This document shows positions 10,140 to 61,431 of a stretch of DNA of 64,000 bases, one piece after another. The position numbers and the translations under genes are program-made. The stretch is from Thermoproteota archaeon. Its GTDB lineage: Archaea; Thermoproteota; Thermoprotei; Gearchaeales; Gearchaeaceae. Below the pieces are notes generated by a model. It searched no databases. It saw only the letters and a list, made by a program, of their open reading frames with translations, and was not told the origin of the DNA. The stretch covers positions 5,404-69,403 of the forward strand of contig JAJPJK010000018.1 in the NCBI GenBank assembly GCA_021324265.1. The letters are read 5' to 3'. Each line of letters begins with the position of its first letter. Position 1 is the first letter of the stretch.

Positions 10140-10213
10140 GGCCCGGATTGAGTAGCCTGGTAGCTCGTAGGCCTGTGGAGCCTATTGCATGGGTTCAAAT
10201 CCCATTCCGGGCC
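10140..10213 (+). tRNA. tRNA-His(GUG) with genomically encoded G-1
   Basis: Cloverleaf: GCCCGGA/TCCGGGC acceptor, TAGGC-CT-GTG-GA-GCCTA anticodon arm, TTCAAAT T loop, discriminator C. Confidence 0.93.
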
Positions 10214-10215
10214 TT

Positions 10216-10287
10216 GGGCCGGTAGTTCAGCGGTAGAATGTCCGTTTCGCATGCGGAAGGTCGAGGGTTCAAATCCCTCCCGGTCCA
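10216..10287 (+). tRNA. tRNA-Ala(CGC)
   Basis: GGGCCGG/CCGGTCC acceptor with G3:U70, anticodon CGC, TTCAAAT T loop. Confidence 0.96.
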
Positions 10288-10326
10288 TAACGCATATAAA
10301 GCTTGTAGAAAAATAGTCTCAGTATT

Positions 10327-11568
10327 GTGTCTGATAATATCAGCGAAAAAGAGCTCATTCGATTGAGAAGGCTAGTTAGGATTCTGAAAAGCAAAGAGGG
10401 AAGGGGTACTGAATTGATATCGTTATATATACCAGCAGGAAGACAAATCGGCGAAGTAGCAAATTTGCTCAGAGAAGAATATTCTCAAGCCGGTAATATC
10501 AAGGATCGCAATACAAGGCATCATGTTCAGGAGGCGCTAACGAGCATTATGCAACGGCTGAAGCTATTCAATAAGGCACCTGATAAAGGTTTGATCGTCT
10601 TCGCTGGTTATGTAGCAGGTGAAGTTTTGGGCGATGAGAAGATGGAGATCTATCTTCTAGAACCTCCAAAGCCAATATCTACATATCTTTACAGGTGCGA
10701 TTCTCGTTTTCATACAGAGATACTTGAAGAAATGATTAAGGTAGGTAATGCTTATGGACTTGTGACCATAGATAGAGAGGAATCATCATTCGCCATTCTT
10801 GAGGGATCTCAATTGGATATCTTGGAAACAATAACTTCAGGTGTTCCAGGGAAGCATAGGGCAGGAGGTCAATCTGCTAGGAGATTTGAGCGAATTATCG
10901 ATATCATGGTGCATGAGTTTTTTAAGCGAATCGGTGAAAGGATGGTAAAGTACTATATGGCTGAAAGAAAAATCGATGGGATTGTTGTAGGAGGCCCTGG
11001 GCCTACTAAGTATGACTTCCTCGACAAGGACTATATTCCTGCTGATTTGAAGAAGAAGATCCTTGGGGTATTAGATTTGGGTTATTCAGGAGAAGAGGGT
11101 ATATATGAGCTCTTAGAGCGCAGCAAGGAACTCTTGCAAAAAGTCGAATACATAAAGCAAAAAGAGGAATTCAACAATTTCCTAAATCTTCTTAAAGATA
11201 ATCCAAAGGGTCTTGTTATAGGCATAAAAGAAGTCATGGGGGCAGTGGCTAAAGGGTCGTTGGAAAAATTGCTCATGCTTGAAGATGTTACAATTCTGAC
11301 TGTTAGTTATACCTGCACGAACTGTGGAAATAGCGAAACGGTTACTGAAGCAACGGAGGACATGTTTTCGTTTAAGCAATCATTGAAATGTAGCAGATGT
11401 GGCTCTCAAAACATTAAGATAGTAGCTGAGAGTGATGAGACAGATAATATAATAGAAAAAGTGTTTGAAAGCGGGGGCGAGGTCATATACATTAGTAAAT
11501 CATTGAATGAGAGCTATTCTTTAGCTAAAACATTCGGAGGCATTGTAGGGATTCTTAGGCAAACATGA
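10327..11568 (+). CDS. prf1: Peptide chain release factor aRF1
   Basis: GTELISLYIP, NIKD, YRCDS, GGQS motifs. Confidence 0.97.
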   Translation: MSDNISEKELIRLRRLVRILKSKEGRGTELISLYIPAGRQIGEVANLLREEYSQAGNIKDRNTRHHVQEALTSIMQRLKLFNKAPDKGLIVFAGYVAGEVLGDEKMEIYLLEPPKPISTYLYRCDSRFHTEILEEMIKVGNAYGLVTIDREESSFAILEGSQLDILETITSGVPGKHRAGGQSARRFERIIDIMVHEFFKRIGERMVKYYMAERKIDGIVVGGPGPTKYDFLDKDYIPADLKKKILGVLDLGYSGEEGIYELLERSKELLQKVEYIKQKEEFNNFLNLLKDNPKGLVIGIKEVMGAVAKGSLEKLLMLEDVTILTVSYTCTNCGNSETVTEATEDMFSFKQSLKCSRCGSQNIKIVAESDETDNIIEKVFESGGEVIYISKSLNESYSLAKTFGGIVGILRQT

Positions 11569-12242: not shown

Positions 12243-12243
12243 T

Positions 12244-12329
12244 GCAGGGGTGCCCGAGCTAGGTCCAAGGGGCGGGACTCAAGATCCCGTGGCTAAAGGC
12301 CATCGTGGGTTCAAATCCCACCCCCTGCA
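12244..12329 (+). tRNA. tRNA-Leu(CAA)
   Basis: GCAGGGG/CCCCTGC acceptor, CGGGA-CT-CAA-GA-TCCCG, long variable arm. Confidence 0.96.
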
Positions 12330-12352
12330 TGAAAACCTCAAAGAAACCCTTT

Positions 12353-13090
12353 TTATGGACCTACTAGAATGCGCATCAAGCCTTTTTCATCAACAATGTT
12401 CATCCTCTTTATTTTCATCTGAACAACTCTTGCGCTATCATGTCTAACTCCAGCAATTAAGGCAATTTCCTTCAGTGTTAAATACTTAAGTCTTGCTTGG
12501 CCAAGCATTTTCATGACAACAAGCCTCTTCAATCCTTGCCTCTCATAAATCTTGATTCTTTCTTCGAATTCTTTATATCTTCTGAAAAGATTGTTTTTTG
12601 CAAGGTTAAACATCTTCGCTACTTTATCAAAACTCATGTTTATGTTGTTTTTTCTAAGGTAATACATAAGGGCAATCGCTTCGAAAATTGGCTCTGCTCC
12701 GTTACCGTTCAAGAAGACCTTTGCTACATTCTTATATGCTTTGCCAATCCTCAAGAATTCGTCATTCATCAATTCTTTGTGTTGAGTTCTGATCATCTCA
12801 TAAATTCTCATCCTCAGCTCCTTGCTATTATTCTGTTCCATAGCTGTTAGTTTTAACCTTGCAAGCATTCCATCTGTTAATTTCTTGCTATACTTCTTAG
12901 GCAGCTTAGCCTTCTTTAGGATTTTTGTATATGTTATTTCTTTTTTCATCTTTCTCTTCTTTGCTTCGCTTCTTGACTCAGAGAAGGAATATATCCTTAT
13001 TTCGCTTAGCAGTCCACATTCTGAGCATACTAAGAATTCTGATTGGTCAGCTTTTACTAGCTTTCCTCCACATTCTTCACAAGCGCTCAT
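12353..13090 (-). CDS. Divergent transcription factor B (TFB/TFIIB) paralogue
   Basis: N-terminal CEECG...VCSECG zinc ribbon; cyclin-repeat-like segment AIALMYYLRKNNINMSFDKVAKMF..LFRRYKEF; C-terminal HTH LTLKEIALIAGV. Confidence 0.75.
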   Translation of the reverse strand: MSACEECGGKLVKADQSEFLVCSECGLLSEIRIYSFSESRSEAKKRKMKKEITYTKILKKAKLPKKYSKKLTDGMLARLKLTAMEQNNSKELRMRIYEMIRTQHKELMNDEFLRIGKAYKNVAKVFLNGNGAEPIFEAIALMYYLRKNNINMSFDKVAKMFNLAKNNLFRRYKEFEERIKIYERQGLKRLVVMKMLGQARLKYLTLKEIALIAGVRHDSARVVQMKIKRMNIVDEKGLMRILVGP

Positions 13091-13287
13091 TCCTTGATGA
13101 AATATATCGTTCTGTATGAGAGCTTCTTGTACTTTACTCCTGGCATTTTGATTAGATGCTGGCTAACTTTCTGAGGAGTAGTTTCTATGCCTTTAGCTAA
13201 TAGATAAGCGGTGATATCCTCAGCGGTAGCCTTTCCAAGCTCCAGCAGTGATTTGTAAAGCATAGCTTTAAAGTAAATAGTATCCAT
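13087..13287 (-). CDS. Small winged-helix DNA-binding-like protein
   Basis: 66 aa; pattern ATAEDITAYL...TTPQKVSQHL..M followed by a beta wing; 4-bp overlap with the TFB paralogue. Confidence 0.6.
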   Translation of the reverse strand: MDTIYFKAMLYKSLLELGKATAEDITAYLLAKGIETTPQKVSQHLIKMPGVKYKKLSYRTIYFIKE

Positions 13288-13321
13288 CGTATGATACTTG
13301 AAAAAAGGTATAAAAGCAACT
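13288..13321 (-). promoter_or_regulatory. Putative leaderless promoter with non-canonical BRE (shared motif, copy 1)
   Basis: AGTTGC-TTTTATA-CCTTTTTTCAAGTATCATACG-ATG; TATA ends 21 nt before the ATG. Confidence 0.55.
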
Positions 13322-13745
13322 AGAGCTCTGCTACGGATATTACTCCAAGAGAAATACAGAGAATTCTAATATAATTTATATTATTATTAATAATTAGTGT
13401 ATTAGAAAAGTTAAAATTATAAAAGATATAACTTCCATTAAAATTTTTTATAATATGATTAGGGTCATTGAGCTCTAGGAAGATCTTCTTGCTTAACCCA
13501 ATATAATTTTTTGTGATGTAAATCCAGGCGCCTTGAGGCAAATAAATCTTTATTGTAAGCGAGCTCAGAGGCTGACTGTATACGAATTGAATTGCATTAT
13601 TTATTTCTTGAACAGCCCTTAGCAACGCTTGATCTTCGAAATAGTTTTTGTCTAAGTATATAAGTGGGAGGCTGTTTATGAACGCTAACGAAATGATTGC
13701 TAAGAGCGTGAATATGACAAGGTAATCAGAAAAATTGGCTGCCAT
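13320..13745 (-). CDS. Minor pilin-like protein
   Basis: Single N-terminal hydrophobic helix then polar beta-rich domain; last gene of pilus operon. Confidence 0.65.
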   Translation of the reverse strand: MAANFSDYLVIFTLLAIISLAFINSLPLIYLDKNYFEDQALLRAVQEINNAIQFVYSQPLSSLTIKIYLPQGAWIYITKNYIGLSKKIFLELNDPNHIIKNFNGSYIFYNFNFSNTLIINNNINYIRILCISLGVISVAEL

Positions 13746-14434
13746 TATGCAAAGAGCCAAAGAACTATGTTCTCTTGATTCTTAATTTCAATAAGTAACT
13801 TATCTTTGTATGTACCATCAAAGATCAGGGTAAAGAAATCTCCGCTTCTTTGGGCAACAAAATCTACAACGCTTCCTTGTGAATAGGCAGTTATATTATA
13901 GCTGGAATCCTTAATTTTCAAATCTTCGCTTATGATATAAACACTTGAGATAAAGATTGTAATGTAGTAGTAAACCCCTATACTTGTATTTGAAGCCCTT
14001 AGGCTTGCATCGAAGACATAGCTAGTTATGTTTGCAAGAATTGTGTTGTTTTCTTGAACTTTAGCTCTGAACGAAGCGCCTTTTCCCTTTAGGCAATTAG
14101 ACGTTATTTCGAAATCAAGGTTTGGCATTGTCCCGAAACTGCTATTTTTGAATATGACTTTTAGATTGCTCGTTGCTTGGTTCCAGTATGTTTTGGCATC
14201 ATTGGTAGCTTTCTGGGAAGCCAAAGCGCAGTCTATATTACCATTTAAGAGATCATGAAATGTTTTATTCGTTGCATATGATAGCGCAGAGGTATAAAAT
14301 GAGAATATCGTTGAAGTTTTCGTTTCCTCCTCATCATCTATGACATATACTTGTAGCCTTAAGTTGGTGAAAGCGAGCGCTATAATTATTAACGATATCA
14401 CGAAAGAAGTTAATATAAGTGCTTGGCCTCTCAT
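13745..14434 (-). CDS. Minor pilin with class III signal peptide
   Basis: MRG|QALILTSFVISLIII prepilin cleavage pattern. Confidence 0.75.
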   Translation of the reverse strand: MRGQALILTSFVISLIIIALAFTNLRLQVYVIDDEEETKTSTIFSFYTSALSYATNKTFHDLLNGNIDCALASQKATNDAKTYWNQATSNLKVIFKNSSFGTMPNLDFEITSNCLKGKGASFRAKVQENNTILANITSYVFDASLRASNTSIGVYYYITIFISSVYIISEDLKIKDSSYNITAYSQGSVVDFVAQRSGDFFTLIFDGTYKDKLLIEIKNQENIVLWLFA

Positions 14435-14435
14435 T

Positions 14436-14843
14436 TCAACTAATCGCTAAGACAATGATTAAAATGTTTGAAGGACTGTTTCCGTTCACTGCTATATAAG
14501 AGGACTCTGAATCTGCGTCATCGAAATAACTTCTTTGATAACTCCACATCAAATACCAGCTCGAGTTATAAAGAGAGATTCTAAAACCATATTCTACAGG
14601 GATGATAGCTTCGGTTGCGTTAACTATCAAGAAATAGTTGCCTTTGAATACTTCTCTAAGAATTCCCGTATAGAGCAAATAAGCTAGAGTCTTTTCAGCA
14701 AGATCCTTTTTTTCCGTTTTGCTTCTAATCATTGCATTACTTGCGAGATATGGGTTTATGAAGAACATCGTCATAGTTAAAAGCAAACAAGCTAGTAGCG
14801 CTTCAATAACTCTTGAGATTGCTCTATGGCTGGCCATATACAT
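14436..14843 (-). CDS. Minor pilin with class III signal peptide
   Basis: HRA|ISRVIEALLACLLL pattern. Confidence 0.72.
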   Translation of the reverse strand: MYMASHRAISRVIEALLACLLLTMTMFFINPYLASNAMIRSKTEKKDLAEKTLAYLLYTGILREVFKGNYFLIVNATEAIIPVEYGFRISLYNSSWYLMWSYQRSYFDDADSESSYIAVNGNSPSNILIIVLAIS

Positions 14844-15228
14844 TTACCTCTATTACTACGAGGGTGTAGCTGGAATTCATGAATGCTCCCAAAGCCTTTG
14901 CTTCGCCTATGAAGCTAGGCAAGCTTGAATTTTTAGGATAAGTACCGTTCTTCAACAAATACACACTTTGTTCGTAGATATATATCCAGTATCTTATCAT
15001 TATGAATATCTTGGCATTTATTTTGTAGAATGAAGGTGTTGCTACGCTATCATTTAGGTGCTTCGTTGAAATTATGTTATCTCTTATCGCAATTGCATAT
15101 TCCAACAAGATAGATCCAATCTTATCTTCATCGTTTGCTGAAAGATAGATGTTGATGCTGAATAATGACCAGCTAAGCACCAATAAAAACAATGCTATAC
15201 CAAGGATAGTTTCTATCGAGCTCTCCAT
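14824..15228 (-). CDS. Minor pilin-like protein
   Basis: MESSIETILGIALFLLVL N-terminal helix; overlaps neighbours in the operon. Confidence 0.65.
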   Translation of the reverse strand: MESSIETILGIALFLLVLSWSLFSINIYLSANDEDKIGSILLEYAIAIRDNIISTKHLNDSVATPSFYKINAKIFIMIRYWIYIYEQSVYLLKNGTYPKNSSLPSFIGEAKALGAFMNSSYTLVVIEVNVYGQP

Positions 15229-17099
15229 TATGGAACTTGGAAAATACTCATCATGTTAGTTATGCTGAGCGAGATAAAGCAGATCATACCGCATAGGATT
15301 GCGTTCTTCGCACCTTCTACACTATTTCCTTCAGCATATCCTCCTAGAAACCCTAAAAAAATAGAGTTGAGATATCCTGCAACCGAAACAAGTTCTTTTA
15401 TGCTTGAAAATGGGATGTTGAGATTCAATAAATTAAAAGAATAAACCATTGTGCTTGCTTGAGCGATAATATTAAACGTTGATACGAGGCTACCCAGCAC
15501 AGCTAGCGAAATTCCCAATGAAAAGCCCAGTAGAGCTGTAATCATATAGCTAGAAAATCTGAAGAATTTCGTCCTCATCTTGTAAATCTTTCTTATGCTA
15601 TCAAGCCTGTACACAAAATCAGCAAATTCTTCCATTGTAGCAGAATCTAGGGCAACCTTATCGCATTCCTCTAATGCTATGAATACCTGTTTAAAGAAAC
15701 TTGGTAGCTTTTCTTTTTCCAGTATTTCCTCCACTGATATGCCCAGCATTCTAAGTAAGCTAATTTTCCTTAGGAAGTCTCCTGCATATTCATATCTCTC
15801 ATGTATCTTATCAATGGCTTGGTAAAGACTATTGCCTTTTTTAACTTCTTCAGCTAAGTCTCTCACTATATTCGGTAGCTCATTCAATAATCTTTCATTC
15901 TCAATTGAGCTTTTTCTATGCAATAAATAGTATCCTATAAGCAAAAACATTGCGCTTGAAAAGAAAGTCATGCTAAGATTAAGAAAGCCCATGAAATTGA
16001 GTATGAAAAAAACAATTGGAGGAAGTAAAAGCAAGTATACTCTACTATCATGCTTCAATCCCATCCTCAGAAAGGGCAATGCGTAACCTTGTATCATAAA
16101 AAAGAAGAGAATGAAGAAAACCGATGGAATTAAAAATAGCGTTGCGAAAAGCATGGAAAAAGTATTGCCTTGCATGAAGAGAAGTGTCATCATTGAAGCG
16201 ATGGGGAGCAAAATGAAGACGATGAGTTGAGCTGCCAAAAGCACATTGAATCTATCTATGAACTCCTCGATCTTTTTTTCAAAAACTTTGAAGGTTTCCT
16301 TCATGTATTCTTTCATAATCGTATAGATCCCTGAGCCTAAGCTTATCGCAGAAATTGCCTGAAGTAATTTTTTGACGGATTCATCTCTTACAATTTTTGC
16401 ATAAAGCGATATTGCATCTATGGGACCTATAGCTAGGAAAGTCTTAAGTCTCTCAATTTGCCTATAGATCCTGTTGAAGCTAGGGAACAATCTCAACTTT
16501 CCAAGCGTGTTTATAGCTGAATAAGGATGTATGTTCGCTGCAGAAAAAGCAGTGATGAACATACTCGCTACAGGCAATTCTCTGCTTATTTTAGAAGTGA
16601 ACTCTCCTTCCTTTATCGCAGGTAGTATCAATAAGTAGCCCAGTAAAAGGAAAGGGATGATGGATATGATCAATAAAATGAGTAGATTTGCTAAATTGCT
16701 TCCGATATCGTTCAAAAATATGGAAAACAATACGAAATTCAATATAAAGGTCATTATCGAAGTGAATAGCACGCTCAATATCAGCTCGTTATATTCCGCC
16801 GGAGTGTATCCTAGCTCCGTGTAATAAAGCCGGCCATAATTTTTATCGTTCTCCTTTTTATATATTTTGGTAAAGAAAAAGAGAGTAAATAAGTTCGATA
16901 AGATTGTAATAAGTAAGTATGAAAATATCCCATACAATAATACAAATAAATTTGATGAAAATATAAAAATAAATAAAGAATAAATAACAACTGGAAGCTT
17001 TATAACAAATTTTATACCAAGCCTTTCTTTTTTAAGAATAAGCTTCAAAATTTTACCCTTTTTGTTCTCTTCTTCAATTAAAACGATCTCCTCACTCAT
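15228..17099 (-). CDS. Type IV pilus membrane platform protein (TadC/ArlJ family)
   Basis: Multi-TM protein with two T2SSF-like repeats (ISRELPVA...; LLNELPNIVRDLAEEVKKGNSL); directly after the ATPase. Confidence 0.88.
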   Translation of the reverse strand: MSEEIVLIEEENKKGKILKLILKKERLGIKFVIKLPVVIYSLFIFIFSSNLFVLLYGIFSYLLITILSNLFTLFFFTKIYKKENDKNYGRLYYTELGYTPAEYNELILSVLFTSIMTFILNFVLFSIFLNDIGSNLANLLILLIISIIPFLLLGYLLILPAIKEGEFTSKISRELPVASMFITAFSAANIHPYSAINTLGKLRLFPSFNRIYRQIERLKTFLAIGPIDAISLYAKIVRDESVKKLLQAISAISLGSGIYTIMKEYMKETFKVFEKKIEEFIDRFNVLLAAQLIVFILLPIASMMTLLFMQGNTFSMLFATLFLIPSVFFILFFFMIQGYALPFLRMGLKHDSRVYLLLLPPIVFFILNFMGFLNLSMTFFSSAMFLLIGYYLLHRKSSIENERLLNELPNIVRDLAEEVKKGNSLYQAIDKIHERYEYAGDFLRKISLLRMLGISVEEILEKEKLPSFFKQVFIALEECDKVALDSATMEEFADFVYRLDSIRKIYKMRTKFFRFSSYMITALLGFSLGISLAVLGSLVSTFNIIAQASTMVYSFNLLNLNIPFSSIKELVSVAGYLNSIFLGFLGGYAEGNSVEGAKNAILCGMICFISLSITNMMSIFQVP

Positions 17100-18681
17100 T
17101 TATTTCACCAATTTCTATGCCTACTTCTTCTTCTCCCAGTCTTTCAGTTAGCCCCTCTTGATGTTCCTCATTGCCTGTTTCAAAGGACTTAGGATTTTCG
17201 TAAAATTTCCATATAAGCTGTGTTACTGTTCTATAATCTAGGAGGTCTTCGTTCGTTTCAGCTTCTTTTTTCAACCTAGAGAAGAATTTATACCTCAATT
17301 CAATCTCTGTTAGTAATTTCTTTTCATCCCATCCTCTTTCCTCCATTATTATTTTACTTGTAGGTAGTTTAAGCAATCCTTCTTCGTCTATTCTTTTGAA
17401 GCTATCATCTTGACTATTGAACTTAGCTACGCTATGAAATCTAGCTCTTTTTCTCTCCAATGATATTTCAAAGTCGAAGAAATCGGAGACCCTTCTTAGG
17501 AATACCTTTCTTGGAACACCTCTTTCATCTTCTTTTATCATGACATATTTTTTCACACCAACTAGCGCGTGTAGGGCTGAAAGGCTTCCTATATCAACTT
17601 TTATAGGCTCTGATAATAACCTCTCTATCGCTGTTGTGTGAGATTCTGCATGGAAGGTCGTTAAGCCACCATGTCCAGTCATTATTGCCTGAGCCCATAT
17701 TTTTCCTTCTTCACCCCTTACTTCTCCTACTACTAGATAATCACCACTCATTCTTAATGCATGCTTTACAAGCATGAACATGTCTATATTGCCCTTTTCA
17801 TCAATAGTCAAACTCTCTCTCGTTATCAAGGGGATCCAGTAAGGATGAGCTAGCCTAATTTCTGGAGTATCTTCTACTGTTATGATAGTTGCTCTCTCGT
17901 TTATACAGTTTGCCAGTGCATTGATCAAACTGGTCTTCCCGCATCCCATGCCTCCATATACTAAAATTGCTTTCTTGTGTTCTATGAGTAGCATCGACCA
18001 TGCAGCGATCCAAGGGTCTATTGTATTATTCACCAGTAATCTAGTCATACTCCAAGGTCTTTCTGGAAACTTTCTTATCGTTATGCTTGAACCTTTATGA
18101 CCAACTTCCTTTTTGTATGTAAGCGTGACCCTTGTCGTATCAGAGGTCCTTATCGATAACAAAGGTTTAAAAGCGCTTATACTTTTGCCACTCCTATATG
18201 CGAACTTCTCTGCATAGAGGTTAATTTCTTTTTCATCCAAAACAACATTCGTTACTAGTTTATCATAATCCGAGTGCACCACTCTTGCAGGTACATCTGG
18301 GCTAGGAACTTGTACATCTTCAACCTTAGGGTCTTTAACCAATGGATCAAGAGCTCCAAATCCAAAAATTTCTCTTTTAAGGAAATAGATTGATCTTTCA
18401 TTTTTAATACCAAGTCTTCTAAGCTCTTTTTCGAAGTTGGAATCGTCGTTGATGTTTACAGCGCGTACTTTAAAGAGCAAATATTCAAGTGTTTCTCTTA
18501 AAGAATTAAGTTCTGCATCACTTATGGGAGGGTCCTCAACCAAGTATTTTCCATTAGCTGTTATGAAAATATGAGATAAACCAATTCTATATTCATCAAT
18601 AATCGTTTCATTAGAGAGTGATACACGATTGATTTTGAAAAGTGAATAATTTGAGAAAAAAGAATTTGTAAACATATTCAC
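17092..18681 (-). CDS. Type II/IV secretion (pilus assembly) ATPase, CpaF/ArlI family
   Basis: Walker A GGMGCGKT, Asp box TVEDTPE, Walker B VVGEVRG, His box GHGGLTTFHAES. Confidence 0.95.
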   Translation of the reverse strand: MNMFTNSFFSNYSLFKINRVSLSNETIIDEYRIGLSHIFITANGKYLVEDPPISDAELNSLRETLEYLLFKVRAVNINDDSNFEKELRRLGIKNERSIYFLKREIFGFGALDPLVKDPKVEDVQVPSPDVPARVVHSDYDKLVTNVVLDEKEINLYAEKFAYRSGKSISAFKPLLSIRTSDTTRVTLTYKKEVGHKGSSITIRKFPERPWSMTRLLVNNTIDPWIAAWSMLLIEHKKAILVYGGMGCGKTSLINALANCINERATIITVEDTPEIRLAHPYWIPLITRESLTIDEKGNIDMFMLVKHALRMSGDYLVVGEVRGEEGKIWAQAIMTGHGGLTTFHAESHTTAIERLLSEPIKVDIGSLSALHALVGVKKYVMIKEDERGVPRKVFLRRVSDFFDFEISLERKRARFHSVAKFNSQDDSFKRIDEEGLLKLPTSKIIMEERGWDEKKLLTEIELRYKFFSRLKKEAETNEDLLDYRTVTQLIWKFYENPKSFETGNEEHQEGLTERLGEEEVGIEIGEINE

Positions 18682-19187
18682 CTTTGAACTACTGCTATGA
18701 AAGGTATAGTGCCTGCTGTTGTTTGTATTACGCCATTGACTTGCGTTAGCGATCCAATGGAAACATTATTAAAGGTAGCGGTAATGGTTTGAGTTTCACC
18801 TGGGTTTATACTGGAGCATTGTTTAGTTGTTGTTGTAGTAGTAGTTGTCCCAGCATTTGTTGTGGTTGTTACAAAACTTACAGAACAATTATTAGACGAT
18901 GCAGTACTTGTGGTACTTCCTGTTATAGTCTGAATATATATTCCTGTTATGTTAGCTTGTAGATTACCTACATTCTTTAATGTAATGTACAAAACAACAT
19001 TGCTACCTTGTACTTGCAAGGTAGGTGTTCCTACAACGATAATATTTGCTTGCTTACTCGTAGAAATACCTAATCCGTAAAGCCAAGAAATTACCAGTGC
19101 AGCTATGCTTATCGATGCTATTACTAGAAGTATTGTTATTATCGGTGCAGAGATATCTCCTCTCTTGTTCTTAATTAGTTTCCTCAT
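18678..19187 (-). CDS. Probable major type IV pilin
   Basis: KNKRG(D)ISAPIITILLVIASISIAALV class III signal; ITLKNVG and INPGET Ig-like strands; Thr-rich loop between two Cys. Confidence 0.88.
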   Translation of the reverse strand: MRKLIKNKRGDISAPIITILLVIASISIAALVISWLYGLGISTSKQANIIVVGTPTLQVQGSNVVLYITLKNVGNLQANITGIYIQTITGSTTSTASSNNCSVSFVTTTTNAGTTTTTTTTKQCSSINPGETQTITATFNNVSIGSLTQVNGVIQTTAGTIPFIAVVQR

Positions 19188-19597
19188 CTCACTATATTAG
19201 GGGGTATATAAAGAGGTGATGGTTTTGTTATGTAGACAATTCCATTTACGTATTGGAAAACTACTATGTTTGAACTCACAGTTCCATAAACGTTCAAAGG
19301 TGAAGGCATTGTTTCATTGATTCCGTAATAAGATATAATAAGGATATTAGTCCCATTGCCTCTAAGATAAACATATTTATTTAAAATTAATGTTATGTTC
19401 TCATTTTTATTATATTTCTGTCCATCATAATATATTTTTTGCAATATGTTTTTTATTTTATAATATATTAAATTAAATTCAAGACTATGATCACTATAAT
19501 AATAGAAGAAGTAAATATTCGAAGATAAAGAAATCAGCAATGCTGAAATGCAAAGCAAAGCAACAGTATTGAGGATCTCGATTATAGCTCTATCCAT
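19184..19597 (-). CDS. Minor pilin-like protein
   Basis: MDRA|IIEILNTVALLCI class III-like N-terminus. Confidence 0.68.
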   Translation of the reverse strand: MDRAIIEILNTVALLCISALLISLSSNIYFFYYYSDHSLEFNLIYYKIKNILQKIYYDGQKYNKNENITLILNKYVYLRGNGTNILIISYYGINETMPSPLNVYGTVSSNIVVFQYVNGIVYITKPSPLYIPPNIVR

Positions 19598-20286
19598 TAT
19601 ACAGCCTGCTGGATCAAGTTCACCTTAATACCTATTAAATAGAAGTTGATTATCGATCTATCATTTATTTTCAAGGAATAAATTGTAGATCCATTGATAT
19701 AGAAGCTCAGCATGAATCCTAGTTGAAATATCCTCGTAAGCGTAACAGCATTCTTTTGTGATTCTATTCTGATCGAATTTTCACCTGTTATTTTTCCTGT
19801 AAAATTGAAATTGAGTATAGATACATAGAAATTATAGATTGTTATGTTTTCTAGCCCAGTTTTGTTTACTTCTATATTCAATGTAGCAATGATAGTTGTG
19901 TTTATTTCCCTAATGGGCTGGGAATTTATAGAATAGAGATCATTTTGGCTGTATTCACATATATTGGAGAGACAAAGCATATACAAGTTCAAGATCCAAC
20001 TAAGCGTTTCGTTGGGCAAGCCTATAGAGAAATTAAAAGCAGTTTTCTGGATGTTTATACTCAATCCTCCAAGATTCAGAATCTTGATGTAATTCTGTTC
20101 ATTCGTAAAATAAATATCATTCAATGTTTCCTTCAGCATTTTCGAAGCTGTTTCAGGATCTATGCTTGCAACCCTACTCGAGTAATCATATTGGTGTGCA
20201 TTAAGGAAACTTAAGATCATGAAGGAAGATATGATCAGTATTGAAACTACGCTTAAGATCTTAATGAGTGTTAATGATATGTTCAT
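19597..20286 (-). CDS. Pilin-like / membrane-anchored surface protein
   Basis: One N-terminal TM helix, Asn-rich beta ectodomain; coupled within the operon. Confidence 0.6.
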   Translation of the reverse strand: MNISLTLIKILSVVSILIISSFMILSFLNAHQYDYSSRVASIDPETASKMLKETLNDIYFTNEQNYIKILNLGGLSINIQKTAFNFSIGLPNETLSWILNLYMLCLSNICEYSQNDLYSINSQPIREINTTIIATLNIEVNKTGLENITIYNFYVSILNFNFTGKITGENSIRIESQKNAVTLTRIFQLGFMLSFYINGSTIYSLKINDRSIINFYLIGIKVNLIQQAV

Positions 20287-21716
20287 GGCCAGCTGTTGTA
20301 GTATAGGATTATGTTTGAATAATCACCTGTTATGAGGATCTCATTTGTACTATTTAGCACAACTTTTATTTCTAGCATATTATATTGGAAGTTTGCTTGT
20401 ATCGCCAATCTTGCATAACCTTGATTGTCTGTCAATGAATAGGATATCGGGACGTTGTCTGCTAGCAAGATGACGGTAGAATTTGGAATGGGACTGAAGT
20501 CACTTAATCTAATTAACTTTATGGTCACGAAATTTTTATCATGAGTCAATACTATGCTTGCAACAGTATCCCATGCTAGGTTTGCTGCATAGCTATTAGG
20601 AATAAGCCCTCCATCATAGTACTGAGGATAGAAGTTCAAGATTCCATACAAAGCTCTAAGTTTATTCACTATAATCCCTTTGTTGAGTGTGAAATTCAAA
20701 TAGCCATTCTTATCGCATGCAGGTGAAGACATGGAAAGCCCCCTTAAGTTTAGGCTTATTACGTTCTCCTTGCCGATCACCATTCCTGAATTATCGGCCC
20801 ATTGAAGAGCAAATTTTACGATATAAGCATCGCTAGTATCGTATATATTTACAACCTTCGGTAATACACCCATGACTTTTACTTCAGTCGAGTTAAAAGC
20901 TGAATATGTGTAATTTTGGGTTGAAAAGGTTGTTCTTATAGTGATCTTAACATTACTGAAGATACTGAGGTATATATAACCAGTCGAATTGGGCAGCCCC
21001 AGTTCATAATTTCCTTCAGGAATCGTTATATTGACAATTAGCGATTTCGAGGGTGTAAACTGTATTGTTTTATTCAATTCAATGGTATCTACAGATGAAA
21101 CTTCACTTCCAAGCCTTTTGAGTATTAGGCTGCTGGTTTTCACCAATGTATTAATTGTTAGATTTCCTTTGCCTAGATAGCTCGTACTAGGGAAATTTAT
21201 AGTAAGTTTAGCCTCAATTTTTATCTTCTCCAGCGGTAGAAAAACCTTTCCAGCTTCATTGTTGATCGCATCCTCGATGGTAATATTTATGCTACTATAG
21301 CTTGAACCTATTTTAGAAACAATGAAATAAAGGCTAGCATAAGCTTTTCCTCCGATGACTTGTATTACATAAAGGTTGCCCGTGAACGTGGCTGTAGTAT
21401 TTGCTGATAAAGGATTTGCGATTTCAATATCATATGAAGCACCCCATGAATTGAAAATGTATCCAGAAGGGAAAATGGCAGTTATTCTATGCTTCCCATA
21501 GGGGTATGCTATTATATCGCCACTTTGATGAAACTGGTTGTCTATATAAACTCCGAAGCCTGAACCTGTTAGCAAGACAATATTGTTTCCAGTCATTGAA
21601 TAAACGCCTATTTTAAGCATAATGCTAGTTGTATCAGCACTTAAACTATGAACATTTGATGGTATGATATATAATAGGATCACCAAAATGAAAATCCAAG
21701 TTTTTAACTTCTTCAT
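20283..21716 (-). CDS. Secreted beta-rich surface protein, putative adhesin
   Basis: Sec signal peptide; PSGYIFNSW repeat-like motif; C-terminal Ig-like ..PIPNSTV..LTDNQGYA; many N-x-S/T sequons. Confidence 0.65.
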   Translation of the reverse strand: MKKLKTWIFILVILLYIIPSNVHSLSADTTSIMLKIGVYSMTGNNIVLLTGSGFGVYIDNQFHQSGDIIAYPYGKHRITAIFPSGYIFNSWGASYDIEIANPLSANTTATFTGNLYVIQVIGGKAYASLYFIVSKIGSSYSSINITIEDAINNEAGKVFLPLEKIKIEAKLTINFPSTSYLGKGNLTINTLVKTSSLILKRLGSEVSSVDTIELNKTIQFTPSKSLIVNITIPEGNYELGLPNSTGYIYLSIFSNVKITIRTTFSTQNYTYSAFNSTEVKVMGVLPKVVNIYDTSDAYIVKFALQWADNSGMVIGKENVISLNLRGLSMSSPACDKNGYLNFTLNKGIIVNKLRALYGILNFYPQYYDGGLIPNSYAANLAWDTVASIVLTHDKNFVTIKLIRLSDFSPIPNSTVILLADNVPISYSLTDNQGYARLAIQANFQYNMLEIKVVLNSTNEILITGDYSNIILYYNSWP

Positions 21717-21750
21717 CGAAATTCTTTTTTAAATCGCTATTTAAGCCACT
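21717..21750 (-). promoter_or_regulatory. Putative leaderless promoter of the pilus operon (shared motif, copy 2)
   Basis: AGTGGC-TTAAATA-GCGATTTAAAAAAGAATTTCG-ATG; TATA ends 21 nt before the ATG. Confidence 0.6.
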
Positions 21751-21847: not shown

Positions 21848-21933
21848 GCGGGGGTACCCGAGCCAGGTCAAAGGGGCAAGCCTGAGGCGCTTGTGCGGTA
21901 AGCGCTGCGTGGGTTCAAATCCCACCCCCCGCA
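21848..21933 (+). tRNA. tRNA-Leu(GAG)
   Basis: GCGGGGG/CCCCCGC acceptor, CAAGC-CT-GAG-GC-GCTTG, long variable arm. Confidence 0.96.
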
Positions 21934-24075: not shown

Positions 24076-26558
24076 GTGCAAAGATATAGCGTTGAGATAA
24101 GCGTTGAGAAGGAGTATGATGATCTCCTAGGAGAGAAGATGGTAAATGGTGCAAAGATCGATGTTAAAGAAACCATTTATGAGTTATTCGCTGAGTTTGA
24201 ACCAAAGATAAAGCATGCTTTGTGCAATAGAAGGGCTTGGCTCGATTTAAAGGAAAGTGTAAGAAGAAAAGGTTCCTTACCAGCTTGGGATAGCAAGTTC
24301 GAAGATGCAGATGGAAATATCTTGACTTTCAAGGAGATCGTTCAAGGTCTTATCGATAATTTCCATGGTAAAAATACCACTCTGCGCTGGTGTTTGAACG
24401 AACATGTCCCAATACCAAGCGAAAGTCATCCCTTGAAAAATCCTGGGCTTGAGATAACGGGTCCTTGGCATCCCTTGAGCAGAGCTTTTAATCAGTTGAA
24501 TGCGGATGTAGCTGTAGCTTTCGAAGATGAAGAAGACGCTTCGCCAGCATGGTATGTACCGTATGGTTCGAACGAAAAATATCCCTCTGTTTGGGAGGCC
24601 AGAAGGAATGTTAAAAGAGTAATCGAGGGAAGCATTCCTGAGATTTACTATGAAAAGGGTAAGGAGTACAGGCTTTTAAAACCAAGGAACAAATGGCCCG
24701 CAATATTCCATAGGCTTCCGAGCATTCATCTCTTAGATGAAACTGTAAAAGTTAATGGAAAGCCTGTGCCTGCGATCATCACTTCTCTTGTAATATACGT
24801 GCTCAATAACTATGATAATTTGGCTAAATTAGGTAAGGGAGTTAACTTTTATCTTCCCAAAATTCAATTCCCTCAGGAGGCCCTTATTGTTGAGAAAATG
24901 TTTAGAAGGATTGAAGGGAAGATAGGGGTGAAAAAAGGTACTTTGAAGGTTGCCATTTTGTACGAAGAAGGTATAGCCGGGCTATATTTCCCAGTAATCC
25001 TTTGGATCCTCAGAGAGAGATTGATAAAATCCAGCAATGGAAGATGGGATTATCTAGCGAGCCTCATAGAAATGTGGAAGGATGAAGCGGTCTTTCCAGA
25101 TCCCCAGAATATTACTATGACTTCTCCTAATATGATGGCCTATCAGAGATACAACGCGCTCATGTTGCTCATGGCTGGCATGAAAAACGGAGAACCAGAT
25201 GCTGCACCTGTAGGTGGGATGGCAGCAGTGATGCTTTATCCTAAGACAGATCCCTATGCAAGATATAGATTCAATCAAAAGGCGTTAAGAGATATAAAGC
25301 TGGATAAGCTAAGGGAAAGGCTGATAGGCTTGATATTCGTTTCTGAAGAGAAAATAGATGCGCCTGTAACGCTTGAGGACATACTTCAAGGTAAGTTTAA
25401 AGGAAAACTCTATGACATGTTCAGACAAAGTTGGGTTGCTACGAAAGAAGAATCATATGTTGAGGCCGGCAATGAGCCGCTGAGAGCTAAACTGGAGGAT
25501 CTCCAAGCAATCATAGATAGAAGGGTAGAATACGTAGAAGTTGGCGGTAATAAATTCCCAACCGTAGCCAGTGGTTTGACTCCTGAGGAAAAGGCTCGCT
25601 TCATCAACTTGGGTTTGCTCAACAAAGAAGGCAAGATAACTCCTTGGGTGATACATAGATATTCAATTACGGAGCCTGAGCAACTCTACTCTAAAGAGTT
25701 ATGGAATGGCAAGGATCTGTGGGAAGCCCTATATAGCGTGCCTATGGCGATATTACCATCGAACACATTCAGCATGCATTTTACATGATCGCAAACTATG
25801 GCTTCCAGATCCTCAACGGCAACCTTGCTGCTGCCATCGATGATTACGAACTTAATCAGAGATTCATGAATGATTTAGCTACATATAGAATCTTCGTTAC
25901 TTGGCTCTGGACTTTGCTCAAACACAAAGCTAGGATAACAAGAAATGGCTATTTGAAAGGACCGCAGAGGACAGAAAATGGTGTAATTCTAGCAAAAAAC
26001 CTCATTGAAATATCCAAAGGTACAATTTTCGATGAAGAACTTTTCAAAAAAGTCTGGGAACAGCACTACGAATGGACAAAGATGTTCTATGAAGATTATG
26101 ACAGAATCGTTGCTAAACGCTTAATCGAGTACTTTAAATTAAACCTGAGTAACGAAAGCTTAATGGATGAAATCTTGGCTTCCATCTCTAAGGCATACGC
26201 TGCAGGTCCATTCCTTAATTATTCCTCTGAAGCAGCGGCAAAAGATATTAGCGAGCTTTTAGGGGTTGAGCAAAAAAATGTAGAAGAGATCATAATTCAA
26301 AATGCACCTAGATTTGATAGATCTAAGGCTGATGTAATAATGGATGTGCTTTACAAGCTCTTGCTTTCGAAGAGCTACTTACAGCATAACTCCAGATTCT
26401 TGTTTGCAATAGCGAGCACAGAGCCTACAAAGCAGCGGTTGCTTCTCGATGTCATCTTGAACTATTCTAGAGAAGAAGTATTGAAGAAGGTTGAGCGCGG
26501 AGAGCTTGAAACTGAGATATTACAAATATATGATTACGTATATGATTATAAAGACTAA
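24076..26558 (+). CDS. aceB: Malate synthase, Sulfolobus-type; split by a single-base frameshift near 25740
   Basis: LEITGP, DEEDAS, YLPK, NGRWDY, GGMAA in part 1; MNDLATYRI in part 2; convergent with isocitrate lyase. Confidence 0.88.
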
Positions 26559-27829
26559 AATTGGTGTTTTTCAGTTGACTTCGTCAATGCCTTAAGGACA
26601 GATTTCTTTTCATGAATTACATCTGAAACTTCATCGTAATAATTAACTCCGACGTAGCTTTGATGCTTCACAGCTCTAAATCCTTCTTTTTCAAGCTCAA
26701 ACTCTTTTTGCTGGAATTTAGCATATGCCAACATTCCTTCCTTTAAAATTGCTTTTGCTAGCTCGAACATAGAAGCATTGAGTGAATGGAATCCTGCGAG
26801 TGTAATGAATTGGAACTTATATCCCATCTCTCCAAGCTTGTTCTGGAATGTTGCTATCGTATCAGCATCAAGGTTCTTTAGCCAATTGAAAGAGGGCGAA
26901 AGGTTGTACATTAGTATTTTTCCAGGAAACTTGCTATGTATTGCATCTGCAAATTTCCTCGCTTCCTCAAGATCTGGCTTGGATGTTTCAAACCAAAGCA
27001 TATCGCTATACGGCGCATATGCTAATGCTCTTTCTATGGCCATCTCCAATCCACCTTCTACTTCATAAAATCCTTCCTCAGTTCTACTCGTGCCCGTGAT
27101 GAACTTTGCATCTCTTTCATCTATATCGCTAGTTATGAATTGTGCGCCTATTGCATCAGTTCTAGCAATGATTATCGAAGGAACACCGCATACATCTGCT
27201 GCTAATCTTGCAGCTATAAGCATGCGTATGAATCTACTTGTTGGCACAAGTACCTTACCTCCTAGATGACCGCACCTTCTTTCGCTAGTAGATTGGTCTT
27301 CAAAGTGAACACCCGCTGCACCGGCTTCAATCATTGCTTTCATGAGTTCGAAAGCATGTAAAGGTCCTCCGAAGCCAGCTTCTCCATCGGCAACAATGGG
27401 GATGTAATAATCTATAGCATTTCTTCCTTCAAGCATTTGTATCTGATCTCTTCTTTGAAGCGCCTTTACTATTTTCCTGATAAGGATTGGTGCGCTGTTG
27501 GATGGATAAAGCCCTAGATCAGGATACATATTTCCTGATTCATTATTATCTGCAGCAACTTGCCATCCACTAACATAGATGGCCTTGAGTCCAGCTTCAG
27601 CCATCTGAACAGCTTGGCTACCAGTGAGGGCGCCCAAAGCGGTCACATAGGGCATGCTCGTTAAATATCTCCATAGTTTAATAGAACATACTTTGGAAAC
27701 CGTGTATTCAATCTTTAACGACCCTCTTAGCTTTAGGACATCCTCTGGATTATAGGGCCTAACAATTCCTTTCCATCTCTCTTCCCTCCATTGGTTTTCT
27801 ATTTCTTCCAGTTCTTCTATATTTAGCAT
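26555..27829 (-). CDS. aceA: Isocitrate lyase
   Basis: [47 protein letters not shown]. Confidence 0.97.
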
Positions 27830-27885
27830 TTTTTTGTCTACAACTTAATACTCCTATTTAACTTTTAGTACTCTTTAATTAGTGC

Positions 27886-28368
27886 TCAAACTTGAACATT
27901 AGCTTCTTCCTTAGCTGTATGCAGTACTAAGCATGTAAGCGTTTTTTCTATTCCCTTCATCCCCCTCAATTCATCTACAACGAATCGACCAATGCTTTCT
28001 ACATCTTTATGCTTAGCTTTTATGAGGATATCCCAGTCTCCGGTTATAATATGGACTTCCTGAATGTTTGGTATTTTACTTATTTGTCTAACAATTTCCC
28101 TCTGGGAAACGCCTTCTGTTTTGGAGAATGAAGCGAAAATGAATGCGGTGACTGGCATACCAAGTTTGGCATGATCAATTATCACAGTATAGTTCTTTAT
28201 TATTCCTGAACTTTCCAGTTTTTTCAACCTTGAATATAATGTAGTAGCAGGAATGCCTATCTTCTTAGCAATTTCCTTTACTGGTCTTCGGCTATCTTCT
28301 TCCAATTCTCTTAGGATCAGCCTGTCTAGCTTGTCAATATTCACGTAATTTTTACGATTTTTCCCCAT
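27886..28368 (-). CDS. Lrp/AsnC family transcriptional regulator
   Basis: DKLDRLILRELEEDSR HTH plus RAM domain (ITGDWDI); true start may be GTG at 28344. Confidence 0.95.
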   Translation of the reverse strand: MGKNRKNYVNIDKLDRLILRELEEDSRRPVKEIAKKIGIPATTLYSRLKKLESSGIIKNYTVIIDHAKLGMPVTAFIFASFSKTEGVSQREIVRQISKIPNIQEVHIITGDWDILIKAKHKDVESIGRFVVDELRGMKGIEKTLTCLVLHTAKEEANVQV

Positions 28369-45572: not shown

Positions 45573-45614
45573 GATAAAGTAAATTTTTTTAAAGTATAAA
45601 GGCTCCCTAGTAAT

Positions 45615-61397: not shown

Positions 61398-61431
61398 GCG
61401 TGGTTAAATACCGATTTCAAAGTATTAGTCG
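61398..61431 (+). promoter_or_regulatory. Putative leaderless promoter (shared motif, copy 3)
   Basis: GCGTGG-TTAAATA-CCGATTTCAAAGTATTAGTCG-ATG; TATA ends 21 nt before the ATG. Confidence 0.6.

What the first reader, a model, noticed from the sequence alone, without database searches (positions are those of the whole stretch)
12353..13287. Divergent TFB paralogue with a rewritten BRE-recognition helix, coupled to a wHTH gene at the end of the pilus locus
Seen: a 245-aa protein with a TFIIB zinc ribbon and a Lys-rich stretch replacing the B-reader/linker. It has one recognisable cyclin repeat, then a shortened second repeat that keeps the HTH (LTLKEIALIAGV-RHDSARV). Established: canonical TFB has roughly TQ.EIA..AGV-TEVTIRNR here, and this helix contacts the BRE; Sulfolobales TFB3 lacks these core domains. 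Inference: unlike TFB3, this protein could bind DNA itself with altered BRE specificity. The 66-aa wHTH overlapping it by 4 bp may be a partner.
Basis: partly seen in the sequence, partly recalled or inferred. Interest (0 to 1): 0.75.

Follow-up and report, generated by a model that had tools for sequence, protein, structure and literature searches.

The report
Truncated TFB-like regulator with wHTH partner
A small, fast-evolving relative of the archaeal transcription factor TFB is made together with a tiny, probably DNA-binding partner protein next to a pilus gene cluster, an arrangement of a kind already described in other archaea.

Summary
Both ORFs are real: 245 aa at 12353-13090(-) and 66 aa at 13087-13287(-), overlapping by ATGA. 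The 245-aa protein belongs to a tiny family (12 clusters among 5.8 billion proteins) in hot-spring Thermoproteota. Its TFIIB ancestry is likely but weakly supported. Pfam Zn_Ribbon_TF matches 12 of 12 members and the TFIIB repeat 6 of 12, all below gathering score. Foldseek ranks TFIIB, Brf and Orc6 entries first (best E 5.7e-4, TM below 0.4).

The architecture is a C4 ribbon, a Lys-rich linker, one five-helix cyclin-like domain and a 62-aa C-terminal helical HTH-like tail. No test shows that this tail is a truncated second cyclin repeat or a rewritten BRE helix, and it is the part that varies most between subclades. TBP binding was not tested.

The 66-aa protein is 80-88% conserved. Its stop overlaps the TFB-like start in 6 of 6 genomes, and a complex model supports binding (0.63; best control 0.00). 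The pair has its own conserved TATA box and sits at the 3' edge of a type IV pilus-like locus in every genome examined.

TFIIB homologues in archaeal pilus loci (Makarova 2016) and TFB3 control of ups pili are already known. This is a new variant of a known kind.

The parts
12353..13090 (-). Gene for the 245-aa TFB-like protein (stop codon at 12353-12355)
   Evidence: ORF. It has 12 homologue clusters of about 250 aa. Orthologues occur in 6 genome loci.
12992..13090 (-). Residues 1-33: C4 zinc ribbon of TFIIB type
   Evidence: C4, C7, C22 and C25 are invariant. PF08271 matches 12 of 12 members, best E 5.5e-5, with no listed score reaching the 29-bit cut-off. The model shows three strands.
12875..12991 (-). 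Residues 34-72: Lys-rich, poorly conserved linker where TFB has its B-reader and B-linker
   Evidence: It holds 13 K and 2 R of 39 residues, and identity to relatives is 23-46%. pLDDT is 42-53 for residues 31-50.
12542..12826 (-). Residues 89-183: five-helix cyclin-like domain containing the family's most conserved HTH (153-180, ...NNLFRRYKEF...)
   Evidence: Helices are at 89-106, 110-126 (kinked), 133-147, 154-160 and 165-183, with pLDDT above 90 from residue 111. PF00382 sub-threshold matches map here in relatives.
12356..12541 (-). Residues 184-245: C-terminal four-helix tail with the HTH-like motif 204-230; predicted docking site for w66
   Evidence: Helices are at 187-195, 206-213, 217-229 and 235-243. 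The predicted interface residues are 178-199 and 239-244. Residues 204-230 vary between subclades.
13087..13287 (-). Gene for w66, a 66-aa probable winged-helix protein
   Evidence: ORF. It is 80-88% identical in 5 loci. PF01316 (ArgR DNA-binding domain) matches 5 of 6 orthologues below threshold, best E 0.0043. Partner pLDDT is at least 87 in the complex model.
13309..13314 (-). TTTATA box, with 21 nt between its last base and the w66 ATG; probable own promoter for a leaderless or near-leaderless w66/TFB-like transcript
   Evidence: Sequence. TTATA is invariant at this position in 6 of 6 aligned loci. Its role as a promoter is inferred.
13320..21716 (-). Upstream type IV pilus-like locus of ten genes on the same strand (secretion ATPase, polytopic platform-like protein, pilin-like proteins)
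   Evidence: PF00437 at 9.5e-27 for 17092-18681. T2SSF at only E 0.056 for 15228-17099. Hydrophobic N-termini. Gene order is conserved in relatives.
21729..21744 (-). TATA-containing near-palindrome TTAAATAGCGATTTAA ahead of the first pilus-locus gene; a candidate regulatory site (speculative)

Best explanation
The 245-aa protein is a lineage-specific, truncated descendant of TFB/TFIIB. It has a C4 zinc ribbon, a Lys-rich linker, one complete cyclin-like domain and a short C-terminal helical HTH-like tail.

It is co-transcribed from its own TATA promoter with the 66-aa winged-helix protein w66, and the two are translationally coupled. They form a heterodimer in which helices 1-2 of w66 pack on helix 187-195 and the C-terminal helix of the TFB-like protein. 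That leaves the w66 recognition helix and wing free.

The pair acts as a dedicated transcription regulator, most likely of the adjacent type IV pilus-like operon. The HTH surfaces place it on promoter DNA and the TFIIB-type ribbon contacts the RNA polymerase dock. It therefore helps (or blocks) pre-initiation complex formation alongside the housekeeping TFB, much as TFB3 does at the ups pilus promoter. It does not replace TFB.

Shown here: gene structure, conservation, gene coupling and architecture. Supported by prediction only: the TFIIB-like fold and the heterodimer. Inferred: DNA binding, RNA polymerase contact and the target genes.
For: TFIIB ancestry:
- PF08271 matches 12 of 12 members and PF00382 matches 6 of 12, in the right order.
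- With the full-length model (pLDDT 80.7), Foldseek ranks 1-29 are all Pol II/III initiation-complex, TFIIB-core or Orc6 entries. The best is 7zwd_M at E 5.7e-4, prob 1.00.
- The core model (pLDDT 86.5, pTM 0.75) again ranks them first: all 19 rows of ranks 1-20, prob up to 0.98.
- The viral library gives TFIIB-annotated proteins, and the Atlas leads point to TFIIB clusters.
- A source names 2 of the 12 clusters TFIIB/Brf1.

Partner:
- The w66 stop overlaps the TFB-like start in 6 of 6 genomes, by 4 or 8 nt.
- w66 is 80-88% identical across loci.
- The complex model scores 0.63 against a best control of 0.00. That mark was reached by 58 of 80 solved complexes and 2 of 110 mismatched pairs. The runs agree in at least 93% of contacts and partner pLDDT is at least 87.
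- 13 of 14 w66 interface residues are invariant against 32 of the other 52 (Fisher p=0.02).
- Neither protein has a sequence relative among solved structures, so the pass is unlikely to come from memory of a solved complex.

Own promoter: a TTATA core is invariant in 6 of 6 loci; in the window it lies 21 nt upstream of the w66 ATG.

Link to pili:
- The pair follows the pilin-like genes in 5 of 5 loci that extend upstream. The platform gene is present in 4 of 4 and the ATPase in 4 of 4.

Precedent:
- TFB3, a truncated TFB, activates the ups pilus operon and needs its Zn ribbon (PMC6101594, passages).
- TFB3 cannot replace TFB and acts in trans with it (PMC7289017, passages).
- TFIIB homologues are the most common predicted regulators in archaeal T4P loci (PMC4858521).
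Against: - No TFIIB match whose score was listed reaches Pfam's gathering score; one search gives only best E-values for the other members.
- Sequence and profile searches of the PDB find no TFB.
- Foldseek TM-scores stay below 0.4, and the core model has no hit at E<=0.001.
- The alignments behind the folds are shallow (12 and 7 rows), as are those behind the complex (6 and 5 rows).
- Interface residues on the TFB-like side are no more conserved than their surroundings (permutation p=0.29).
- All six genomes are one lineage in which the flanking housekeeping genes (eRF1, amino-acid kinase, tRNAs) are just as syntenic. Adjacency to the pilus genes may be inherited gene order and not a functional link.
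- The pair's separate promoter means it is not simply part of the pilus operon.
- No DNA target, RNA polymerase contact or TBP contact was tested.
Confidence: 0.5

Rival explanations
1. The protein is a true alternative TFB. Its cyclin domain binds TBP and its C-terminal HTH is the second-repeat BRE-recognition helix with rewritten specificity, so it nucleates initiation complexes on a special promoter class.
For: The ribbon, linker and core are in TFB order. That helix differs between the two subclades, as a specificity determinant might. A TBP gene lies in the window at 63314-63886.
Against: The tail has only four short helices in 62 residues, not a five-helix cyclin repeat. No second PF00382 stretch was found in the four proteins with a listed match. 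The internal-repeat hhalign gave P=0.15. The core does not superpose on TFIIB cores as a two-lobed unit (TMq 0.30-0.38). The B-reader/B-linker region, which TFB needs to load template DNA (PMC7289017), is replaced by an unconserved Lys-rich stretch. The predicted w66 interface occupies part of the tail.
Confidence: 0.15
2. It is a transcription regulator unrelated to the pilus genes. The pair regulates other genes, or acts globally, and sits beside the pilus locus only through inherited gene order.
For: It has its own TATA box. All neighbouring genes, housekeeping ones included, are syntenic in the six genomes, so adjacency carries little weight.
Against: It lies on the same strand, 32 bp from the last pilin-like gene. 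Its divergence (38-51% over full-length matches) resembles that of the pilin-like genes (29-48%), not that of eRF1 (55-84%). In the literature, regulators including TFIIB homologues recur inside T4P loci.
Confidence: 0.2
3. It has no transcriptional role. It is a cytoplasmic accessory of the pilus-like machine and uses the ribbon and helical domains only for protein contacts. This follows the idea raised for clade 4D systems.
For: Makarova et al. raised a repurposed function for T4P-like loci that carry a single-cyclin TFIIB homologue. TFIIB similarity here is weak.
Against: This locus, unlike 4D, has a full set of pilin-like genes. The partner looks like a DNA-binding winged helix. The conserved RRYKEF-type HTH is typical of TFIIB repeats (Pfam mapping).
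Confidence: 0.1
4. It is the remnant of an integrated virus or mobile element that carried its own TFB-like factor.
For: The 9.5-kb block is bracketed by two tRNA-Leu genes. The nearest Atlas feature clusters are viral hypothetical proteins, scoring 0.90, which is a lead only. Some archaeal and giant viruses encode TFIIB-like proteins.
Against: No integrase was seen and there are no att-like partial tRNA repeats; the only long repeat is the pair of tRNA genes themselves. GC content is unremarkable. The same block, with the same tRNAs, is present in relatives as divergent as 38% identity. PHROGs gave nothing meaningful.
Confidence: 0.05

Closest known systems
Canonical archaeal TFB / eukaryotic TFIIB (arCOG01981; PF08271 + 2 x PF00382)
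   Same: It has an N-terminal C4 ribbon, a linker of similar length, then a cyclin-like helical domain with an HTH ending in an RRYKEF-type motif. Foldseek ranks TFIIB-family entries first. arCOG01981 proteins are also found in many T4P loci.
   Different: It has only one cyclin-like domain. The B-reader/B-linker region is unrecognisable and Lys-rich. A 62-aa tail stands in place of a second repeat. All Pfam matches whose scores were listed are below threshold, and there is no sequence hit to solved TFB or TFIIB structures. It has a predicted obligate small partner.
Sulfolobales TFB3 (truncated TFB paralogue)
   Same: It is a truncated TFB paralogue linked to a type IV pilus operon. TFB3 activates ups and ced genes and needs its Zn ribbon (PMC6101594), and it works with TFB, not instead of it (PMC7289017). 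That is the working model adopted here.
   Different: TFB3 is described as a ribbon plus a coiled-coil motif. This protein keeps a cyclin-like domain and an HTH tail, is encoded beside the pilus locus, and comes with a wHTH partner.
arCOG05559, the single-cyclin TFIIB homologue of clade 4D T4P-like loci in Pyrobaculum/Thermoproteus
   Same: It has a Zn finger plus a single cyclin domain, is encoded in a T4P-like locus and occurs in Thermoproteota (PMC4858521).
   Different: arCOG05559 genes are about 480 nt, or about 159 aa (supplement), against 245 aa here. 4D loci have only an ATPase and a 4-5 TM protein, no pilins, and RPB8 nearby. This locus has seven pilin-like genes, a protein with 12 hydrophobic segments and no RPB8. 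Sequence relatedness was not tested because no arCOG05559 sequence was at hand.
Winged-helix domains that touch TFIIB-type cyclin lobes in eukaryotic initiation complexes, and TFE-alpha (winged helix + Zn ribbon); recalled, not tested
   Same: A winged-helix module is paired with a TFIIB-like factor. The gene order wHTH then Zn ribbon echoes the TFE-alpha domain order.
   Different: Here the winged helix is a separate 66-aa protein predicted to bind the C-terminal tail, not the ribbon. No homology to TFE or TFIIF was found.

Membership tests
TFB/TFIIB family | N-terminal CxxC...CxxC zinc ribbon of TFIIB type (PF08271) | tested here: inconclusive
   The four Cys are invariant. PF08271 matches 12 of 12 members, but no listed score reaches the gathering score (window protein 20 bits against 29; best family E 5.5e-5).
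TFB/TFIIB family | B-reader and B-linker motifs between the ribbon and the core | not testable with these tools
   No profile for these motifs was available. The region (34-72) is Lys-rich, 23-46% identical within the family and of low model confidence.
TFB/TFIIB family | Two cyclin-fold repeats (2 x PF00382) | tested here: not met
   There is at most one PF00382 stretch per scanned protein with a listed match, mapping to about 86-180. The tail of 62 residues has four short helices. hhalign of repeat against tail gave P=0.15.
TFB/TFIIB family | Fold similarity of the core to solved TFIIB/TFB cores | tested here: inconclusive
   TFIIB, Brf and Orc6 entries fill the top ranks (prob up to 1.00 and 0.98), but the best E is 5.7e-4 for the full-length model and 0.10 for the core, with TMq no higher than 0.38. 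One local fit to an entry containing Brf1 (8ffz_H) covers 67 columns at rmsd 2.4 A.
TFB/TFIIB family | Binds TBP and reads the BRE through the HTH of the second repeat | not tested
The window's TBP (63314-63886) was not modelled with it.
TFB3-type truncated TFB | Zn ribbon plus coiled-coil motif, with the cyclin core absent | tested here: not met
   A five-helix cyclin-like domain is present at 89-183. The TFB3 description comes from PMC6101594.
arCOG05559 (single-cyclin TFIIB homologue of 4D loci) | Zn finger plus a single cyclin domain | tested here: met
   The architecture matches, but this protein is about 85 residues longer.
arCOG05559 (single-cyclin TFIIB homologue of 4D loci) | Sequence membership in the arCOG | not tested
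arCOG05559 (single-cyclin TFIIB homologue of 4D loci) | Locus of 4D type: ATPase plus a 4-5 TM protein, no pilins, RPB8 adjacent | tested here: not met
   There are seven pilin-like genes, a protein with 12 hydrophobic segments, and no RPB8 among the neighbours.
Winged helix-turn-helix (w66) | Three helices followed by a beta-hairpin wing | tested here: inconclusive
   PF01316 (ArgR DNA-binding domain) matches 5 of 6 orthologues, best E 0.0043, below threshold. TIGR01529 gives 0.0026. There is no PDB sequence hit and no separate fold was run. Partner pLDDT is at least 87 in the complex model.
Archaeal type IV pilus-like locus | Secretion ATPase, platform protein, pilins with class III signal peptides, and a prepilin peptidase | tested here: met
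   The ATPase matches PF00437 at 9.5e-27. The polytopic protein has only a weak T2SSF match, E 0.056. Seven small proteins have an N-terminal hydrophobic helix, e.g. MRGQA..., judged by eye. Peptidase_A24 matches at 1.7e-8 at 44865-45620.

The most novel reading that the evidence does not exclude
This is a two-subunit TFB-like factor. A separately encoded 66-aa winged helix docks onto the truncated C-terminal lobe of a one-cyclin TFB relative, standing where the lost helices of a second cyclin repeat would be. It supplies the sequence-reading surface, so promoter choice is delegated to a detachable subunit while the ribbon still recruits RNA polymerase. That would be a modular, sigma-like solution for promoter selection in archaea, tied to surface-filament genes.
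Probability: 0.2. Interest if true: 0.7.

Novelty: new variant of a known kind. Interest (0 to 1): 0.45.

Why it matters
How archaea achieve promoter-specific transcription with TFB paralogues is only partly understood, and the TFB3 mechanism is still called poorly understood (PMC7289017). A naturally minimal TFB relative (ribbon, one cyclin-like domain, small tail) that appears to need a winged-helix partner would be a compact system for two questions: which TFB parts suffice for activation in trans, and how specificity is added. It would also give a candidate regulator for one of the many uncharacterised, fast-evolving pilus systems of Thermoproteota. Its reach is limited: the family is confined to one uncultured hot-spring lineage, and every functional statement is inference.

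Tried and rejected
- Sequence and profile searches of solved structures found no TFB or TFIIB and nothing significant. These used the window protein, the family profile, P0007, the distant protein P0011 and the w66 profile.
- Bridging to canonical TFB failed. P0011 (287 aa, E 1e-3 to the query, PF00382 at 8.7e-4) turned out to be an orphan. A family-profile search of 5.8 billion proteins at E<=10 returned only the same 12 clusters. P0010 is a 1356-aa tandem-repeat protein and was dropped as spurious.
- The internal-repeat test of the cyclin domain against the tail paired the two HTHs, but at P=0.15.
- The Atlas search with w66 gave no usable lead.
- PHROGs gave only weak, incoherent matches.
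- The mobile-element idea was set aside.
- A first alignment of the pilus-operon upstream regions used wrong start coordinates and was uninformative. It was redone by eye.
- treekit offers only NCBI ranks, so the lineage could not be placed below 'Thermoproteota archaeon'.
- The only paper naming the single-cell genome used it as a tree tip.
- Two literature searches for a TFB-like/winged-helix pair in pilus loci found nothing specific: 0 papers and 9 unrelated papers.

Left unchecked:
- TBP binding, because only one complex job was allowed.
Full report
**What is there**

The window carries a 245-aa ORF at 12353-13090(-) and a 66-aa ORF, here called w66, at 13087-13287(-). The w66 stop and the next start share ATGA. 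The window is chromosomal DNA of a low-GC archaeon (about 36-40% GC). It holds ribosomal protein genes, eRF1, family B DNA polymerase, TBP, Alba and arcadin-1. There is no canonical TFB in the window.

A tRNA-Leu(CAA) gene at 12243-12330(+) lies between the converging amino-acid kinase gene and the 245-aa gene.

**The neighbourhood**

Upstream on the same strand are ten genes (13320-21716):
- A secretion ATPase at 17092-18681 (PF00437, 9.5e-27).
- A 623-aa protein with 12 hydrophobic segments and only a weak T2SSF match (E 0.056).
- Seven small proteins with an N-terminal hydrophobic helix, for example MRGQA..., which I read as pilin-like.
- A 477-aa protein with a signal-like N-terminus.

A prepilin peptidase gene lies elsewhere in the window, at 44865-45620. 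'Pilus locus' is therefore a fair description.

**The family**

- A word-seeded search of 5.8 billion proteins found 7 clusters.
- An exhaustive phmmer of 1.84 billion representatives found 5 hits at E<=0.001. One (P0010) is a spurious tandem-repeat protein. Another (P0011, 287 aa, E 1e-3) is a distant orphan.
- A family-profile search at E<=10 returned 12 clusters in all, each 245-259 aa.
- A scan of 185,579 species genomes gave six loci, all labelled Thermoproteota or Crenarchaeota archaeon.

This is a real, conserved, but very narrow family.

**Is it TFIIB-like?**

By curated thresholds it is not:
- The window protein has only a 20-bit PF08271 match (cut-off 29) and no PF00382 match at E<=1.
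- NCBIfam gives nothing.
- Sequence and profile searches of the PDB find no TFB.

The weak signals nevertheless agree with each other:
- PF08271 matches 12 of 12 members (best E 5.5e-5). PF00382 matches 6 of 12 at E<=0.1 (best 2.9e-4).
- Wherever PF00382 coordinates were listed, there is a single stretch, mapping to about residues 86-180 and ending at the profile's end.
- The AlphaFold2 model from 12 sequences (pLDDT 80.7) shows a three-stranded ribbon, a disordered stretch at 35-51, helices, then a well-defined five-helix unit at 89-183 and four more helices to the C-terminus.
- Foldseek against the PDB puts Pol II/III initiation-complex entries, TFIIB cores, Brf2 and Orc6 at ranks 1-29. The best is 7zwd_M at E 5.7e-4, prob 1.00, and P. 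woesei TFB 1ais_B is at rank 36. The tool does not name the chains inside the large complexes. I take them to be TFIIB or Brf chains from recall.
- A second model of residues 72-245 (pLDDT 86.5, pTM 0.75) again ranks those families first, but with no hit at E<=0.001, TMq 0.30-0.38 and rmsd 12-15 A.
- The viral library and the Atlas point the same way.

I rate TFIIB ancestry at about 0.85. The evidence is fold ranking and sub-threshold profiles, not a significant alignment.

Three results count against calling it the BRE helix of a shortened second repeat:
1. No TFIIB-repeat signal falls in 184-245, and hhalign of the cyclin domain against the tail aligns HTH to HTH only at P=0.15.
2. The cyclin domain and tail do not superpose on TFIIB cores as a unit.
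3. The helix is not a family constant. Residues 204-230 are 67-89% identical to the window protein in the five near clusters but 22-30% in the six far ones. The HTH inside the cyclin domain (151-183, with NNLFRRYKEF) stays at 55-82% throughout and is the most conserved segment.

Which canonical repeat the surviving cyclin domain corresponds to is unresolved. The linker (13 K and 2 R of 39 residues, 23-46% identity, low confidence) shows nothing like a conserved B-reader or B-linker, the elements TFB uses to load template DNA (PMC7289017, passages). TBP binding was not tested.

**The partner**

- w66 is 80-88% identical across five loci, while the 245-aa protein is 38-51% identical over full-length matches.
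- Its stop overlaps the next start by 4 nt (window, L001, L002) or 8 nt (L004-L006), that is in 6 of 6 genomes.
- Five of six orthologues weakly match the ArgR winged-helix domain (best E 0.0043).
- The complex model supports binding but does not show it. The score is 0.63 against a best control of 0.00, a mark reached by 58 of 80 solved complexes and 2 of 110 mismatched pairs. The runs agree in at least 93% of contacts and partner pLDDT is at least 87. My own shallow alignments were used, so those counts hold only roughly.
- The interface joins w66 residues 16-38 (end of helix 1, helix 2, start of helix 3) to residues 178-199 and 239-244 of the 245-aa protein. Most of the w66 recognition helix and the wing are left free.
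- 13 of 14 w66 interface residues are invariant against 32 of the other 52 (p=0.02). On the other side, conservation is not enriched (p=0.29).

**Expression signals**

The 32-bp gap before w66 holds TTTATA at 13309-13314, with 21 nt between it and the ATG. A TTATA core is invariant at this position in 6 of 6 loci. I infer an own promoter giving a leaderless or near-leaderless bicistronic mRNA.

**Association with pili**

The pair follows the pilin-like genes in 5 of 5 loci that extend upstream (L003 starts inside the gene). The platform gene is present in 4 of 4 and the ATPase in 4 of 4, one of them cut by a contig end. The four distal genes are present in 3 of 3.

The flanking eRF1, kinase and tRNA genes are equally syntenic, and all the genomes are one lineage. 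This shows persistence, not an independent functional link.

**What is already known**

- Makarova, Koonin and Albers (PMC4858521; abstract, sections 14 and 16, supplement search) reported TFIIB homologues as the most common predicted regulators in archaeal T4P loci. These are arCOG01981 (two cyclins) and arCOG05559, a single-cyclin form of about 159 aa in pilin-less clade 4D loci of Pyrobaculum and Thermoproteus. This lineage is not in their table.
- A 2026 survey repeats the 4D remark (PMC13705601, passages).
- TFB3, a truncated TFB, activates the ups pilus operon, and truncated TFBs occur in 16 crenarchaeal genera in three classes (PMC6101594, passages).

**Verdict**

The BRE-specificity interpretation is unsupported. 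The partner idea gains support. This is best filed as a new architectural variant (one cyclin-like domain, an HTH tail and a coupled wHTH subunit) of the known theme of a TFB paralogue attached to a pilus system.

Noticed in passing
window 21729-21744 and 61404-61417: The TATA box ahead of the first pilus-locus gene sits in a near-palindrome, TTAAATAGCGATTTAA. The 14-nt core TTAAATASCGATTT recurs exactly once more, also with 21 nt to an ATG, ahead of a 111-aa membrane protein gene (61432-61767). At up to 2 mismatches there are 7 sites against 3.13 expected, and 2 of 100 shuffles reach 7. It may be a shared operator. Conservation of the second site in other genomes was not checked.
   Followed up: partly
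window 12243-12330 and 21848-21933; L001, L002, L005: Two tRNA-Leu genes (CAA and GAG, same strand, 72% alike) bracket the whole pilus-plus-regulator block. The same arrangement is seen in relatives: CAA in 6 of 6 loci and GAG in the 3 of 3 loci that reach that far. There are no att-like partial repeats, and no integrase was seen.
   Followed up: yes
L004 2913-2928, L005 10735-10750, L006 5347-5362: In the far subclade, the 3' end of the TFB-like ORF runs about 16 nt into the converging tRNA-Leu(CAA) gene. This gives a shared ...AGGGI tail that is the complement of the tRNA acceptor end. Either the true stop is earlier or the genes really overlap.
   Followed up: partly
window 10327-11568: The eRF1 homologue carries a CxxC...CxxC insertion (about residues 328-364) inside domain 3, picked up as weak zinc-ribbon matches.
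   Followed up: no
window 10140-10288: tRNA-His(GTG) and tRNA-Ala(CGC) lie head to tail, with no gap in the ARAGORN coordinates. The pair is also adjacent in L001 and close together in L003, L005 and L006. It may be a co-transcribed tRNA pair.
   Followed up: no
window 24076-28368: Malate synthase-like and isocitrate lyase genes lie close together (with an unassigned 257-aa ORF between them), next to an Lrp/AsnC regulator. This looks like a glyoxylate-shunt cluster.
   Followed up: no
window 54727-55587, 58917-59240, 63314-63886: A KaiC-like ATPase, arcadin-1 (a crenactin-system marker) and TBP lie in the last 10 kb. This TBP is the natural partner to test against the TFB-like protein.
   Followed up: no
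protein P0011 (not in the window): This 287-aa orphan has a TFIIB-type ribbon and a sub-threshold TFIIB repeat. It is the only protein outside the family with E<=0.001 to the query, apart from the spurious P0010, and it has no relatives of its own in 5.8 billion proteins. More such one-off truncated TFB-like proteins may exist.
   Followed up: partly
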